NCBI GenBank assembly: GCA_963824565.1
Contig: CAWGQB010000012.1
Coordinates: forward strand, 4,465 to 68,464
DNA: 64,000 bases
Reading direction: 5' to 3'
Origin: an uncultured Pseudomonadota bacterium
GTDB taxonomy: Bacteria; Desulfobacterota; Binatia; Binatales; Binataceae
Made by a program: the position numbers and the translations under genes
The notes under the pieces: model-generated
What the model was told of the DNA's origin: nothing
The model's database searches: none
The model's input: only the letters and a program-made list of their open reading frames with translations
Part shown: one piece after another, positions 54,138-57,229 of the stretch
Layout of the letters: each line of letters opens with the position of its first letter
How positions within the stretch are numbered: position 1 is the stretch's first letter

Positions 54138-54967
54138 GTGCAGCGAAGCTAGCTGCCGTTCCAGCAGGTGGAAGACCTGCCAGTGGAAGCACCCAGGCGC
54201 CACTGTAGTTATACCCGACGGCGAGAAGGGCGACCGACTCGGCCGCAAGCTGCGGGAGTAAAAGCCTCGGTCGGCTGGGGCAGGAGTGCAGGTCGAAAGA
54301 CTATCAGCATCGGGCCCCGGTCAGGTCCGCCAGGGAGGCGAGCAACTCAGCAGGTTGTAGCGAATGAGCGAACCAGAAAGCCCCGAAAAACAGACCCACA
54401 CGAAGCGGATTGAAGTGGAACAATGAGAGTGCCGAGCCTCGGGGAGAGGTAGGCGAAGGCGAAACTCGTTGCTGGAGGGCTGGGAGCGCGCCAGGGCGAG
54501 ACTCTCCGGGGAAGAAGAGGGCGACATGCTGAGAAGGAACGTGCAGCGAAAGCTCGGAACCAGTGGTCGAATGCCTAGGCTGGCAGCAGGCCAGCACAGC
54601 GAAGGCGGGACCTATAACCCGCAGAGCGGGGAAGTGGTACCGTGTCGGCCAGTGGGACGGATGAGGCCGATTAAGTGATGATGGACCGGGACAGCATAAC
54701 CCGGACCGGAGCGAGGGCCTCTGGGGTAGAGCGGCTATACCGCTCGCATGGCGGCAGCGCAAAAGAGCTGTGCACCCTCGACTCAGAGCGAGGACGATGC
54801 CAGCCACACACGCTGCGAAGGACGGGCGCAAACCGCAAGGGAAGGCCCCGTCTGACAGGCCAGCCTTGGAGCCGTATCGGGGAAAACCCGCCGTACGGAA
54901 TCTTAGGGGGGACGATGGAAACGTCGGCATCATTCGAAGCCCGGTCCGCGCCATCGTCCTACCCGAC
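54138..54967 (+). ncRNA. ORF-less group II intron, copy 1 (830 nt)
   Basis: 5' GTGCAG; 34-nt domain V GAGCCGTATCGGGGAAAACCCGCCGTACGGAATC (AGC triad); domain VI GGACGATGG/CCATCGTCC with bulged A at -7; 3' end AC; EBS1 loop CGGGGAGAGGT; no RT motifs. Confidence 0.9.
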
Positions 54968-55069
54968 CCTTTATGTGTAAGGGAGAGGGGAGGGTGAGGG
55001 TTTCTGGTAACCTGAGCTTACGATTGTTAGACAATACTCAGAAAAAAACAGACACCCTCACCCTTCCCT

Positions 55070-55276
55070 TGTATGTTGTCAAAGGGTGGGGAAAAGACCC
55101 AGAATCGGCAGGGGCGCGGTAGGTCGAACACCCTTGAGGCGAACAAGCTTGGGGGAGAGCAGGATCGCCGCGCCACTACCAAACCGGCCGAGAGTCCGAA
55201 CAGTCGCTGGGGCCATAAAGTTGAGCCCGAATTGCGCAAGGCGGGATCGGGGCCGAAAAGCAAGTGGGTCAAGGTG
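55070..55276 (+). ncRNA. Putative IS110 bridge RNA (left-end non-coding region)
   Basis: ACAGTCGCT (55200-55208) equals the right-end donor sequence incl. core. GGGAGAG (55153-55159) is the reverse complement of target CTCTCCC and sits in an internal loop closed by GCGG-UA-GGUC/GAUC-G-CCGC. Confidence 0.7.
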
Positions 55277-56230
55277 ATGAGCCAATATGCGGAGCTTTAT
55301 GTGGGAATCGATGTCGCTAAGCGCACGCTCGAAGTCGCGCTGAGCAGCGGCGAGCTTCTAAGTGTAGTCAATGACGATGCGAGGATCGCCGACCTGGTCC
55401 AGGACTTGGTTAAACGGGCTCCAGCGCTAGTGGTACTCGAGGCCACTGGTGGTTACGAGCGTAAGGTGTGGATGGCCCTACTGGAAGCGCGAATTCCAAC
55501 CGCGCGGGTTAACCCGCGTGACACCCACCACTTTGCTCAGGCCCATCGTCAGTTGGCCAAGACTGACCGCCTCGATGCCCGCGGTTTGATGCTGTTTGCG
55601 GCCCAGATGCGTCCCCGGCCCGACGTCGCCCCCGCCGCGGCGGATGAGCGGCTCAAAGAGTTGGTGGCCCGGCGCCACCAGCTTACGACGATGCTTACGG
55701 CAGAACACAACCGTCATCAGCAGGCGATTAGTCCCGCCAACCGCCGCAGTATCCAAACCGTCATCCGGTTTTTGGAGCGCCAGCGTAAAACGCTTGACCA
55801 GGCCATCGAGAAGCATTTGAGCACCCACGCTCAGATGCGCGAGCTCGATGAGCTGTTGCAGACCGCCAAGGGAGTGGGTTGCGTGGTTTCGGCCACCTTA
55901 ATCGCGCGGCTGCCGGAGTTAGGTTCCCTCAGCCGCCGCCAAATCGCCGCACTAGTAGGCGTCGCACCTTACGACCGCAAGAGCGGAGACTGGGATGGCC
56001 GCAGCCATATCTTTGGTGGTCGGGCCGATGTCCGCTGCGCGCTGTATATGGCGGCCCTCGGTGCGGTCCGCGGAGACCCTCACCTGCGAGCCTTTTATCG
56101 GCGTCTGCTTGAACAGGGCAAGGAAAAGAAGGTTGCTCTCACTGCCTGCATCCGTAAATTGGCGATCATGCTCAATGCGATGGTCAAACACCGCACTCCA
56201 TGGAGACCCTTATGTCCAACACTCGCCTGA
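55277..56230 (+). CDS. IS110 DEDD recombinase/transposase
   Basis: VGIDVAK, LEATGGY, KTDRLD (DEDD RuvC-like), GVG...A, AALVGVAP...SG, GGRADVRCALY. Confidence 0.95.
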   Translation: MSQYAELYVGIDVAKRTLEVALSSGELLSVVNDDARIADLVQDLVKRAPALVVLEATGGYERKVWMALLEARIPTARVNPRDTHHFAQAHRQLAKTDRLDARGLMLFAAQMRPRPDVAPAAADERLKELVARRHQLTTMLTAEHNRHQQAISPANRRSIQTVIRFLERQRKTLDQAIEKHLSTHAQMRELDELLQTAKGVGCVVSATLIARLPELGSLSRRQIAALVGVAPYDRKSGDWDGRSHIFGGRADVRCALYMAALGAVRGDPHLRAFYRRLLEQGKEKKVALTACIRKLAIMLNAMVKHRTPWRPLCPTLA

Positions 56231-56283
56231 CTACCCAGCATCGCAAGCATCCCGCGGGTGCCAATTCCATTGGCTCTCAAGGG

Positions 56284-56349
56284 GTTGCCCACAAGTCCAC
56301 AGGCGGGATTCTTAACTCATTCCCACAGCCTGTGGACCCTGTGGGCAAC
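56284..56349. repeat. Imperfect palindrome inside IS110 right end
   Basis: GTTGCCCACA-AG-TCCACAGGC-N23-GCCTGTGGA-CCC-TGTGGGCAAC. Confidence 0.7.
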
Positions 56350-56361
56350 GCTTCCCACCGC

Positions 56362-56382
56362 TTGACAAACCACACAGTCGCT
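56362..56382 (+). promoter_or_regulatory. -35 half of IS110 circle-junction promoter (pairs with -10 TATGTT at 55072-55077)
   Basis: On circularisation: TTGACA-aaccacacagtcgct-tg-TATGTT, a 17-nt spacer. Confidence 0.7.
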
Positions 56383-56400
56383 CTCCCTTAGAAATAAAGG

Positions 56401-57229
56401 GTCGGGTAGGACGATGGCGCGGACCGGGCTTCGAATGATGCCGACGTTTCCATCGTCCCCCCTAAGATTCCGTACGGCGGGTTTTCCCCGATACGGCTCC
56501 AAGGCTGGCCTGTCAGACGGGGCCTTCCCTTGCGGTTTGCGCCCGTCCTTCGCAGCGTGTGTGGCTGGCATCGTCCTCGCTCTGAGTCGAGGGTGCACAG
56601 CTCTTTTGCGCTGCCGCCATGCGAGCGGTATGACCGCTCTACCCCAGAGGCCCTCGCTCCGGTCCGGGTTATGCTGTCCCGGTCCATCATCACTTAATCG
56701 GCCTCATCCGTCCCACTGGCCGACACGGTACCACTTCCCCGCTCTGCGGGTTATAGGTCCCGCCTTCGCTGTGCTGGCCTGCTGCCAGCCTAGGCATTCG
56801 ACCACTGGTTCCGAGCTTTCGCTGCACGTTCCTTCTCAGCATGTCGCCCTCTTCTTCCCCGGAGAGTCTCGCCCTGGCGCGCTCCCAGCCCTCCAGCAAC
56901 GAGTTTCGCCTTCGCCTACCTCTCCCCGAGGCTCGGCACTCTCATTGTTCCACTTCAATCCGCTTCGTGTGGGTCTGTTTTTCGGGGCTTTCTGGTTCGC
57001 TCATTCGCTACAACCTGCTGAGTTGCTCGCCTCCCTGGCGGACCTGACCGGGGCCCGATGCTGATGGTCTTTCAACCTGCACTCCTGCCCCAGCCGACCG
57101 AGGCTTTTACTCCCGAGCTTGCGGCCGAGTCGGTCGCCCTTCTCGCCGTCGGGTATAACTACAGTGGCGCCTGGGTGCTTCCACTGGCAGGTCTTCCACC
57201 TGCTGGAACGGCAGCTAGCTTCGCTGCAC
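56401..57229 (-). ncRNA. ORF-less group II intron, copy 2 (829 nt), inverted
   Basis: Reverse complement of copy 1 with about 4 substitutions and 1 indel; junctions TCTGTGCCCTCTC|GTGCAG...CCCGAC|CCTTTATTTCTAAGGGAGAG. Confidence 0.9.

What the first reader, a model, noticed from the sequence alone, without database searches (positions are those of the whole stretch)
54138..57229. ORF-less group II introns programmed to home into a dispersed REP palindrome
Seen: two ~830-nt elements with textbook domains V and VI and no intron-encoded protein. Both interrupt the same position of a REP hairpin (GTGCCCTCTC|CCTTT...AAGGGAGAG; copy 1 lacks 2 nt of the 5' exon). The Id3-like loop GCCT-CGGGGAGAGGT-AGGC contains GAGAGG, the exact complement of the last 6 exon nt (CCTCTC), and the preceding G could pair with exon +1 C. 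Known: EBS1-IBS1 pairing directs retrohoming, and ORF-less introns can be mobilised in trans. Inference: this lineage uses a multi-copy, largely intergenic repeat as a safe-harbour homing site and borrows an RT from elsewhere. I am not aware of a description of REP-homing group II introns, but cannot search. The 5' end is GUGCA rather than GUGYG.
Basis: partly seen in the sequence, partly recalled or inferred. Interest (0 to 1): 0.88.

Follow-up and report, generated by a model that had tools for sequence, protein, structure and literature searches.

The report
Protein-less group II introns homing into REP-like repeats
Two (three genome-wide) nearly identical self-splicing group II introns that carry no gene of their own sit at exactly the same base inside copies of a short palindromic repeat, and their guide sequences match that repeat, so a non-autonomous retroelement appears to have re-aimed itself at a harmless multi-copy landing site.

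Summary
Window 54138-54967 (+) and 56401-57229 (-) are 99% identical, 830-nt group II introns without an ORF. Both score above the Rfam RF02003 threshold. A third copy lies on another contig.

All three split a dispersed REP-like hairpin at CTCTC|CC. A metagenome contig holds a 93.5% identical copy at the same position. A 5'-truncated relic in another genus keeps the same 3' junction with that genus's version of the repeat.

Across 27 relatives, EBS1 (GAGAGG), an EBS2 and an EBS3 each co-vary with their own flanking exons. In this intron all three match the repeat consensus TCTGTGCCCTCTC|C.

Domains V and VI are real and supported by covariation, but they are not textbook. An invariant AA faces the G of the AGC triad, domain VI is 59 nt, and RF00029 scores below its threshold.

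The intron belongs to a widespread lineage that is ORF-less as a whole (70 of 86 sampled loci). That lineage is often nested in RT-encoding introns of a different RNA type. This genome has at least three intact copies of that type, which are the likeliest RT donors. This is inferred, not shown.

This is a new variant of a known kind. The closest known case is the Thermosynechococcus ORF-less introns mobilised in trans into multi-copy mobile-element sites.

The parts
54065..54083 (.). Left terminal inverted repeat of the ~240-bp composite repeat (hairpin doublet) that hosts all three insertions. Its partner is at 57279-57297.
   Evidence: Inverted pair I4, 19 nt, 89%. The joined flanks align end to end with uninterrupted paralogous repeats at window ~37600-37860 and on contigs C16 and C26.
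54127..54137 (+). 5' exon of intron copy 1: an IBS2-like TTTGT (54127-54131) and a damaged IBS1, CCCTC. It lacks the TC that intact repeats and copies 2 and 3 have.
   Evidence: Only 4 contiguous pairs with the EBS1 loop remain for this copy.
54138..54967 (+). ORF-less group II intron, copy 1 (830 nt). Consensus folding gives D1 ~1-419, D2 ~420-520, D3 ~526-584, D4 ~586-730, D5 732-765 and D6 769-827.
   Evidence: RF02003 at 53.2 bits. Consensus fold of 27 relatives. It agrees with 270 of 282 near-invariant lineage columns. No Pfam domain in its internal ORFs.
54390..54394 (+). EBS2 (ACAGA), complementary to UCUGU in the repeat's 5' flank.
   Evidence: These columns pair with exon positions ~-11 to -15 in 65-82% of relatives, with 3-4 pair types per position. 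The 93.5% relative L186 has UCAGUG here and CACUGA in its exon, a compensatory change.
54444..54449 (+). EBS1 (GAGAGG), complementary to CCUCUC, the last 6 exon nt.
   Evidence: Exon -1 to -6 pairs with these columns in 93-100% of 27 members, with 3-4 pair types.
54514..54514 (+). EBS3 candidate (G), pairing with C at exon +1 (a IIB-type arrangement).
   Evidence: This column co-varies with +1 in 21 of 27 members (G-C, A-U, U-A). It is the best of all columns.
54869..54902 (+). Domain V (34 nt). It has the AGC triad, a CC bulge and a GAAAA loop. An invariant AA faces the G of AGC.
   Evidence: The closing pair 1-34 shows 5 pair types in 55 of 61 unique relatives. The AA is invariant in 61 of 61. 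RF00029 aligns in register at 27.3 bits.
54906..54964 (+). Domain VI (59 nt), with the bulged branch-point A at 54961, 7 nt from the 3' splice site. It contains a highly conserved 32-nt interior.
   Evidence: Stem pairs hold in 58-61 of 61 relatives, with up to 6 pair types. The branch A is invariant.
54968..55006 (+). 3' exon of copy 1: the rest of hairpin A (CCTTTATGTGTAAGGGAGAG) plus the GGGAGGGTGAGGGTTTCTG tail typical of the repeat family.
   Evidence: About 20 genomic BLAST matches to this segment. Motif census.
55069..56380 (+). IS110-family insertion sequence (transposase 55283-56230), inserted at the edge of hairpin B between the two introns. It is not part of the intron system but shares the same repeat as a landing site.
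   Evidence: PF01548 at 70.4 bits and PF02371 at 58 bits. It is single-copy in this assembly. The ends are approximate and come from alignment to uninterrupted paralogs.
56381..56400 (-). 3' exon of copy 2 (minus strand: CCTTTATTTCTAAGGGAGAG), which is hairpin B of the doublet.
56401..57229 (-). ORF-less group II intron, copy 2 (829 nt). Its EBS1 is at 56919-56924 on the minus strand.
   Evidence: RF02003 at 57.1 bits. 99% identical to copy 1.
57230..57242 (-). 5' exon of copy 2 (minus strand: TCTGTGCCCTCTC), with intact IBS2 (57238-57242) and IBS1 (57230-57235).

Best explanation
These are copies of a non-autonomous, SINE-like, IIB-type group II intron. The ribozyme is intact, but domain IV holds no reverse transcriptase.

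Three guide elements in domain I together spell the consensus of a dispersed REP-like hairpin repeat and its 5' flank, TCTGU..CCUCUC|C. They are EBS2 (ACAGA), EBS1 (GAGAGG) and EBS3 (G).

The proposed mechanism runs as follows.
1. The intron is transcribed by read-through from the neighbouring genes. Both window copies lie sense-oriented behind convergent genes.
2. The RNA splices.
3. It reverse-splices into another repeat copy at the phosphodiester after CTCTC.
4. It is copied into DNA by a reverse transcriptase supplied in trans.

The most likely donor is the endonuclease-less RT/maturase of the resident full-length introns on contigs C13, C9 and C24. These have a different RNA type (Rfam D1D4-6). 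Lacking an endonuclease, such an enzyme would prime cDNA from replication-fork DNA ends.

Shown here by computation: ribozyme identity, absence of an ORF, the identical insertion point in 3 (+2) independent repeat copies, and covariation of all three guide/target pairings. Inferred: splicing in vivo, the identity of the helper RT, and the priming route.

The repeat serves as a renewable and probably neutral homing site. About a dozen unoccupied copies with matching IBS2+IBS1 remain in this genome.
For: - **Ribozyme identity:** RF02003 hits above threshold on both copies and on the C10 copy. D5 and D6 covariation with an invariant branch A. 96% agreement with lineage-invariant columns at only ~75% overall identity.
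- **No ORF:**
- **Same site in different repeat copies:** the flanks differ. 3 of 3 copies sit in CCTCTCCCTT sites, which make up 70 of the 931 genomic CCTCTCC sites, so chance would give about 4e-4.
- **Independent copies elsewhere:** a metagenome copy in a repeat with a different loop and flank, carrying a compensatory EBS2/IBS2 change. A 5'-truncated relic in genus g5 with the same 3' junction, as expected of abortive reverse transcription.
- **Guide/target covariation:** EBS1, EBS2 and EBS3.
- **Helper RT:** at least 3 intact 492-aa IEPs (TIGR04416 at 360 bits, RVT_1, no endonuclease domain) inside RF02005 introns. In other genomes the ORF-less lineage sits inside introns of this type, at J5/6, at position 13 or in D4. 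Among 61 related genomes, 4 of the 6 with a sizeable ORF-less match also have this IEP type, against 8 of 61 overall (hypergeometric p about 0.002 by my own arithmetic).
- **Precedent:** trans-mobilisation of ORF-less introns, and homing into conserved sites of other mobile elements, is shown experimentally in Thermosynechococcus (PMC2882425).
Against: - No RNA or read-level evidence of splicing or of empty/occupied polymorphism could be obtained.
- The proposed helper intron has a different RNA type, with no detectable nucleotide similarity beyond D5 and no ORF remnant in the ORF-less intron. Its IEP would therefore have to accept a heterologous ribozyme. Other RTs exist in the genome (contigs C7, C4, C38).
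- Copy 1 has lost 2 nt of IBS1 and probably cannot splice correctly.
- The insertion point lies inside the 5' arm of the hairpin. A folded repeat would hide IBS1, so the palindrome itself is probably not the recognition feature.
- Only 2 of 165 genomes of the family show the intron-repeat junction. MAG assemblies tend to break or collapse at repeats, so this may be an undercount.
- The genome is an 84%-complete MAG, so copy numbers are lower bounds.
Confidence: 0.75

Rival explanations
1. The intron entered one repeat copy once. It then spread to other repeat copies at the DNA level, by gene conversion or recombination between repeats, without any RNA intermediate. On this view it is now a splicing-only or inert passenger.
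For: The repeats supply short homologous flanks on both sides. The three copies are 99% identical, which conversion would also produce. No helper RT has been demonstrated.
Against: The homology beside the junctions is only ~10-40 bp and differs between sites. The metagenome relative shows a compensatory EBS2/IBS2 change that tracks a different repeat flank. That is expected only if RNA-DNA pairing selects the site. The relic in G010 is truncated from the 5' end exactly as abortive cDNA synthesis would leave it. The whole lineage shows EBS/IBS matches at dozens of unrelated sites.
Confidence: 0.1
2. The introns are mobile, but the helper is not the D1D4-6-type intron RT. It is instead another resident RT (the GIIM-containing IEP on C7, or one on C38) or an RT supplied by a plasmid or phage that is not in the assembly.
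For: Other group II RT/maturases are present: C7 is intact at 464 aa with RVT_1+GIIM, and C4 and C38 are partial. There is no sequence similarity between the ORF-less intron and the D1D4-6 introns. The MAG is 84% complete.
Against: Nesting and co-occurrence point specifically to the D1D4-6/En-minus type. G024, G060 and G007, which hold the best relatives, all carry that IEP type.
Confidence: 0.15
3. The hairpin itself, extruded in single-stranded DNA, is the recognised feature, as with class C introns at terminators and attC sites. The EBS matches would then be secondary.
For: Class C introns use stem-loop motifs as targets (PMC4424553). All occupied sites are hairpins.
Against: Insertion is inside the 5' arm, not after the stem. 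The intron has a full EBS2 and a 6-nt EBS1, unlike class C. Relatives insert into many non-hairpin sites with matching EBS/IBS. Orientation is explained by the asymmetric IBS2 flank.
Confidence: 0.05

Closest known systems
Thermosynechococcus elongatus ORF-less TeI3 introns mobilised by 'driver' TeI4 IEPs (Mohr, Ghanem & Lambowitz 2010, PMC2882425)
   Same: Both are ORF-less IIB-type introns present in several near-identical copies, with good EBS/IBS pairing at each site. Both are mobilised in trans. In both cases target specificity has evolved towards a conserved site in another multi-copy element (an IS or another intron), giving twintrons in relatives.
   Different: The TeI3 introns are obvious deletion derivatives of the co-resident TeI4 introns and keep ORF remnants. 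Here the ORF-less lineage has no remnant and a different D1-D4 RNA type from the candidate helper. The target here is a non-coding REP-like palindromic repeat, not an IS or an intron. No experiment has been done here.
Methanosarcina acetivorans ORF-less and RT-encoding introns that home into other group II introns (Dai & Zimmerly 2003, as summarised in PMC4424553)
   Same: In both, ORF-less introns coexist with RT-encoding ones and home site-specifically into other mobile elements. Relatives of the present intron do exactly this, inserting at J5/6, at position 13 and in D4 of host introns.
   Different: The present copies have left the intron-in-intron niche and target a host repeat family.
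Class C (IIC) group II introns inserting at terminator stem-loops and attC sites (PMC4424553)
   Same: Both use an En-minus mobility route, associate with palindromic intergenic DNA motifs, and occupy a safe intergenic location.
   Different: IIC introns insert after the stem-loop, have a very short IBS1 and no EBS2, and encode their own RT. Here the insertion is inside the 5' arm, with EBS1+EBS2+EBS3 pairing and no RT.
REP-targeting insertion sequences (IS110/IS1111 family such as ISPpu9/ISPpu10, and IS1397; Tobes & Pareja 2006, PMC1525189)
   Same: In both, a REP-type repeat is used as a specific, multi-copy, neutral landing site. An IS110 element sits in the very same repeat doublet here.
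   Different: Those are DNA transposons or recombinases. That paper lists the P. putida group II intron as REP-associated in only 2 of 9 copies, with no site specificity claimed.

Membership tests
Group II intron ribozyme | Covariance-model match to curated group II models | tested here: met
   RF02003 (D1-D4-4) scores 57.1 and 53.2 bits against a gathering score of 49. RF00029 (D5-D6) reaches only 27.3 bits against a gathering score of 40, but aligns in full register.
Group II intron ribozyme | Domain V: a ~34-nt hairpin with the AGC triad and a 2-nt bulge | tested here: met
   Located at 54869-54902. The helices are supported in 55-61 of 61 relatives, and the closing pair covaries. One deviation: an invariant AA, rather than a single U, faces the G of AGC.
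Group II intron ribozyme | Domain VI with a bulged branch-point A 7-8 nt from the 3' splice site | tested here: met
   A54961 is 7 nt from the 3' end and is invariant in 61 of 61. The stem shows many compensatory changes.
Group II intron ribozyme | 5' GUGYG and 3' AY termini | tested here: inconclusive
   The 5' end is GUGCA(G), not GUGYG. This is lineage-wide, seen in 25 of 27 members. The 3' end is AC.
Group II intron ribozyme | EBS1-IBS1 and EBS2-IBS2 pairing with the 5' exon, and EBS3 or delta pairing with the 3' exon | tested here: met
   Covariation across 27 members: EBS1 93-100%, EBS2 65-82%, EBS3 78%, plus a compensatory EBS2 change in L186.
Group II intron ribozyme | Self-splicing or lariat formation | not testable with these tools
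This needs a bench assay.
Autonomous group II retroelement | An intron-encoded RT/maturase in domain IV | tested here: not met
   D4 is about 145 nt. No Pfam domain is found in any internal ORF, and there is no tblastn remnant of an IEP. It is therefore filed as non-autonomous.
Class C (IIC) introns | Insertion directly after a stem-loop, no EBS2, and a small ribozyme of ~400-450 nt | tested here: not met
   Insertion is inside the 5' arm, EBS2 is present, and the ribozyme is 830 nt.
REP elements sensu stricto | A short GC-rich palindromic unit dispersed in many copies | tested here: met
   About 59 hairpin loci (118 matches counted on both strands). There are 150 strand-counted CCTCTCCC..GGGAGAGG matches.
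REP elements sensu stricto | Association with a RAYT (Y1 transposase) gene flanked by the repeats | tested here: not met
   There are two weak PF01797 hits (30.9 and 23.5 bits). Neither is flanked by these hairpins. The units are modules of a ~240-bp TIR-bounded composite. They are therefore called 'REP-like'.
REP elements sensu stricto | Extragenic location | not tested
   The window locus lies between two convergent genes, so both window copies are intergenic. Around the third copy on contig C10 only ORFs were listed, not annotated genes. No genome-wide annotation was made.
Trans-mobilised ORF-less introns (TeI3-like) | An RT-encoding group II intron in the same genome | tested here: met
   At least 3 intact D1D4-6-type introns with a 492-aa IEP, plus a GIIM-type IEP on C7.
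Trans-mobilised ORF-less introns (TeI3-like) | The ORF-less intron is a deletion derivative of the co-resident ORF-containing intron | tested here: not met
   The Rfam D1-D4 types differ (RF02003 against RF02005). No nucleotide or protein remnant is detectable.

The most novel reading that the evidence does not exclude
The window shows one retargeted member of a large lineage of group II introns that spans several phyla and is ORF-less as a whole. The lineage is marked by a GUGCAG 5' end, a domain V with an AA bulge that standard D5 models under-score, and an elaborated domain VI.

On this reading the lineage persists as a SINE-like hyperparasite of endonuclease-less RT-encoding introns of another RNA type. 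It can escape that niche by re-programming EBS1 and EBS2 onto host repeat families. The same REP-like repeat then acts as a shared 'landing pad' for two independent RNA-guided mobile systems: this intron and an IS110 element.

Probability: 0.45. Interest if true: 0.78.

Novelty: new variant of a known kind. Interest (0 to 1): 0.62.

Why it matters
It gives a clean natural example of a non-autonomous group II intron whose target choice can be read directly from three guide/target pairings. It also shows the intron re-aimed from other introns to a host repeat family.

This bears on three questions:
- How retroelements find 'safe harbours'.
- How ORF-less introns persist. Reviews call them rare in bacteria (PMC4424553), yet 70 of 86 sampled loci of this lineage are ORF-less.
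- How far a helper RT's specificity can be relaxed.

The compact, naturally retargeted 830-nt ribozyme could also interest people who design targetrons. Relatives occur in cultured strains (Edaphobacter modestus DSM 18101 and Bradyrhizobium plasmids).

Tried and rejected
1. **Delta-delta' pairing of the G before EBS1 with exon +1.** Rejected. That position is U in 24 of 25 relatives whatever the +1 base is, and +1 co-varies with window 54514 instead.
2. **Inverted duplication or assembly artefact as the origin of the two copies.** Rejected. The outer and inner flanks correspond to hairpins A and B of an uninterrupted paralogous doublet. The copies differ at several positions in a mosaic with the third copy.
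3. **An RT-encoding parent of the same RNA lineage.** None was found among 124 D5 matches in species-representative genomes.
4. **An orthologous empty site in the same genus.** The neighbouring gene has an ortholog in G004, but synteny breaks at the stop codon.
5. **RAYT association.** Not found.
6. **The exact EBS1-loop 21-mer in metagenomes.** No match. A degenerate pattern gave one true relative among many chance matches.
8. **Simon et al. 2008** could not be read because it is not held.
9. **The contig C29 match** (80 nt, 83%) was not resolved. It has no Rfam hit.
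Full report
**What is there**

The stretch lies between two convergent genes. A carboxylesterase-like ORF ends at 54022 on the plus strand, and a CoA-transferase-like ORF ends at 57401 on the minus strand.

Two inverted repeat arms (54135-54987 and 56381-57232, 99-100% complementary) each contain an 829-830-nt element. The boundaries are GTGCAG...CCCGAC, at 54138-54967 (+) and 56401-57229 (-). 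Both match Rfam RF02003 (group-II-D1D4-4) above the curated threshold, at 53.2 and 57.1 bits against 49. An IS110-family transposase gene lies between them (PF01548 and PF02371).

No ORF inside the elements has a Pfam match. No remnant of a group II RT is detectable. A third copy, more than 99% identical, lies on contig C10 of the same genome.

**The repeat**

The sequence flanking each copy belongs to a dispersed family: CCCTCTCCCTT-loop-AAGGGAGAGGG, usually followed by (T/G)AGGGTGAGGGTTTCTG. About 59 hairpin loci were found genome-wide.

In the window the hairpins are two modules of a ~240-bp composite with terminal inverted repeats (54065-54083 and 57279-57297). When the three insertions are taken out, the joined flanks align along their length with uninterrupted paralogs at window ~37600-37860 and on contigs C16 and C26.

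So the locus is one repeat doublet hit three times. An intron sits in hairpin A, an intron sits in hairpin B on the other strand, and an IS110 sits at the edge of hairpin B.

I found no RAYT gene associated with the hairpins. 'REP-like' is therefore the safer name.

**Same site every time**

- Copy 2 and the C10 copy are flanked by ...CCCTCTC|intron|CCTTTAT....
- Copy 1 is the same but lacks TC.
- A metagenome contig (L186) holds a 93.5% identical intron at ...GATGCCCTCTC|intron|CCTGACCAGGGAGAG. That is the same position in a repeat with another loop and another flank.
- In genus g5 of the same family (G010), a 5'-truncated relic, reaching from the D5 loop to the 3' end, is followed by CCTATGATCAACGGGAGAGGG. 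This is that genome's version of the repeat.
- CCTCTCC occurs 931 times in the genome, and only 70 of those sites are CCTCTCCCTT. Three of three insertions in such sites is therefore far from chance.

**Guide sequences**

I collected relatives in two ways: by searching related genomes, and by scanning species-representative genomes for the lineage's D5 sequence.

Twenty-five complete relatives plus the two window copies were aligned. Every alignment column was then tested for complementarity to each exon position.

- **EBS1.** Exon positions -1 to -6 pair with the columns of window 54444-54449 (GAGAGG) in 93-100% of members, with 3-4 pair types each. The mean Watson-Crick run is 5.9 for true intron/exon pairs and 2.1 for mismatched ones, and only 2.6% of the mismatched pairs reach 6.
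- **EBS2.** Exon positions about -11 to -15 pair with the loop that contains window 54390-54394 (ACAGA) in 65-82% of members, with 3-4 pair types per position.
- **EBS3.** Exon +1 co-varies best with window 54514, in 21 of 27 members with three pair types. This is an EBS3 in the IIB manner.
- **The base before EBS1.** It is U in nearly all relatives regardless of +1.

In this genome the three elements read the repeat consensus TCTGTGCCCTCTC|C. The L186 relative has UCAGUG at EBS2 and CACUGA in its exon, a compensatory change on a different repeat flank.

Because the hairpin is a palindrome, CCTCTC|CC exists on both strands. The asymmetric IBS2 flank explains the observed orientation.

About twelve unoccupied repeats with an IBS2-like flank plus IBS1 remain.

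Copy 1, with only CCCTC left, has lost most of its IBS1 pairing. It is probably a dead copy.

**Ribozyme quality**

A consensus fold of the 27 sequences gives the usual six domains, with a D4 of ~145 nt.

- **D5** (54869-54902) keeps the AGC triad and the 2-nt bulge. Its closing pair shows five pair types. An invariant AA faces the G of AGC in 61 of 61 unique relatives.
- **D6** (54906-54964) is 59 nt. Its stem is full of compensatory changes, it has an invariant bulged A 7 nt from the 3' end, and it holds an unusually conserved 32-nt interior.
- **RF00029** misses the region in a 3.4-kb search and reaches 27.3 bits on the isolated stretch.

'Textbook' is therefore too strong, but the domains are real.

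The window copies agree with 270 of 282 near-invariant lineage columns, while being at most 75% identical overall to the sampled relatives. This argues for a working ribozyme. GUGCAG at the 5' end is a lineage trait.

**The lineage and the likely helper**

Of 86 D5 matches with enough upstream sequence, 70 have the lineage's 5' end only 630-888 nt upstream of D5. None has an RT ORF in between. The lineage as a whole is therefore ORF-less. It occurs in Acidobacteriota, Planctomycetota, Verrucomicrobiota, Alphaproteobacteria, Binatia and others.

A fraction of members are nested inside RT-encoding introns of another RNA type (RF02005, D1D4-6). Three nesting positions were seen:
- between that intron's D5 and D6 (target GGAUCUG|UG);
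- after its 13th nucleotide;
- in its D4.

In each case the EBS1 matches the site.

The present genome holds at least three intact introns of exactly that host type, on contigs C13, C9 and C24, plus partial copies on C5, C34 and C36. Each intact one encodes a 492-aa RT/maturase without an endonuclease domain (TIGR04416 at 360 bits).

Among 61 related genomes, this IEP type and the ORF-less lineage co-occur more often than expected: 4 of 6 against 8 of 61.

This makes the D1D4-6 IEP the best helper candidate, but it is circumstantial. The two RNAs share no detectable similarity outside D5, and other RTs are present.

**Comparison with the literature**

ORF-less bacterial introns, trans-mobilisation by a 'driver' IEP, and homing into conserved sites of other mobile elements are all documented for Thermosynechococcus (PMC2882425) and for Methanosarcina (summarised in PMC4424553).

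[quoted passage not shown] That caveat fits this lineage.

REP elements are known targets of IS elements. The only link to group II introns that I found is a table entry for P. putida: 2 of 9 copies lie near REPs (PMC1525189). Full-text searches for REP- or palindromic-repeat-homing group II introns returned nothing closer.

I therefore rate this a new variant of a known kind.

**Limits**

- The genome is an 84%-complete MAG.
- No orthologous empty site was found.
- Helper identity and the priming mechanism are inferred from established knowledge of En-minus introns (PMC4424553).
- Notes by other agents of this scan describe the same AA-bulged, ORF-less, intron-invading lineage in other genomes. 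I treat these as leads that agree with my own tests, not as evidence.

Noticed in passing
window 55069-56380: An IS110-family element (DEDD transposase, 55283-56230) is inserted at the edge of hairpin B of the same repeat doublet. The metagenome relative L186 shows the same intron-repeat-IS110-end arrangement, with the same IS end sequence next to a different repeat copy.
   Followed up: partly
window ~37600-37860; also G000 C16:143330-143670 and C26:425000-425400: Uninterrupted paralogs of the ~240-bp composite repeat. Each has two oppositely oriented hairpins and terminal inverted repeats of the form GACTGTCGAAAAATGG.../...CCATTTATCGACAGTC. The family looks MITE-like rather than like classical RAYT-associated REPs.
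   Followed up: partly
L055, L090, L123 (Isosphaeraceae); L032, L118, L139; L050, L053, L084, L119; L056, L131, L132, L138: Other subfamilies of the same ORF-less lineage have 3' exons that recur between loci and genomes. One example is TCGGGTTTTTTCTCGCGACGACGCCCGCTCCGAAAAAAACCC, itself a hairpin. Other members may therefore also use multi-copy repeats as homing sites.
   Followed up: no
window 54919-54950 (interior of domain VI): The 32-nt segment AAACGUCGGCAUCAUUCGAAGCCCGGUCCGCG is almost invariant across genera, while the rest of the intron is ~70% identical. Other subfamilies replace it with unrelated inserts. Its function is unknown; it could be a helper-protein or tertiary-contact site.
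   Followed up: no
G000 C13:234380-236310, C9:9100-11000, C24:170400-172300: Three intact full-length En-minus group II introns, about 96-100% identical to each other, of type RF02005. D5 is GAGCCGTATGCAGCAATTCTGCACGTACGGATC and D6 is TGCGGGGGGCG...CGTCCCTACCGCGAC. Partial copies lie on C5, C34 and C36. None of them is invaded by the ORF-less intron.
   Followed up: partly
L156 (Bradyrhizobium sp. ISRA443 plasmid NZ_CP094524.1, 81773-82130) and L059 (Edaphobacter modestus DSM 18101): Cultured strains carry members of the lineage. The Bradyrhizobium copy is 5'-interrupted by what reads like an IS110-type transposase gene (read by eye, not scored). The Edaphobacter copy appears to be nested in another intron's D4. 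These strains are possible experimental systems.
   Followed up: partly
G000 C29:2662-2740: An 80-nt stretch is 83% identical to intron nt 55-134, with no Rfam hit around it. It may be a decayed fragment of a related intron.
   Followed up: no
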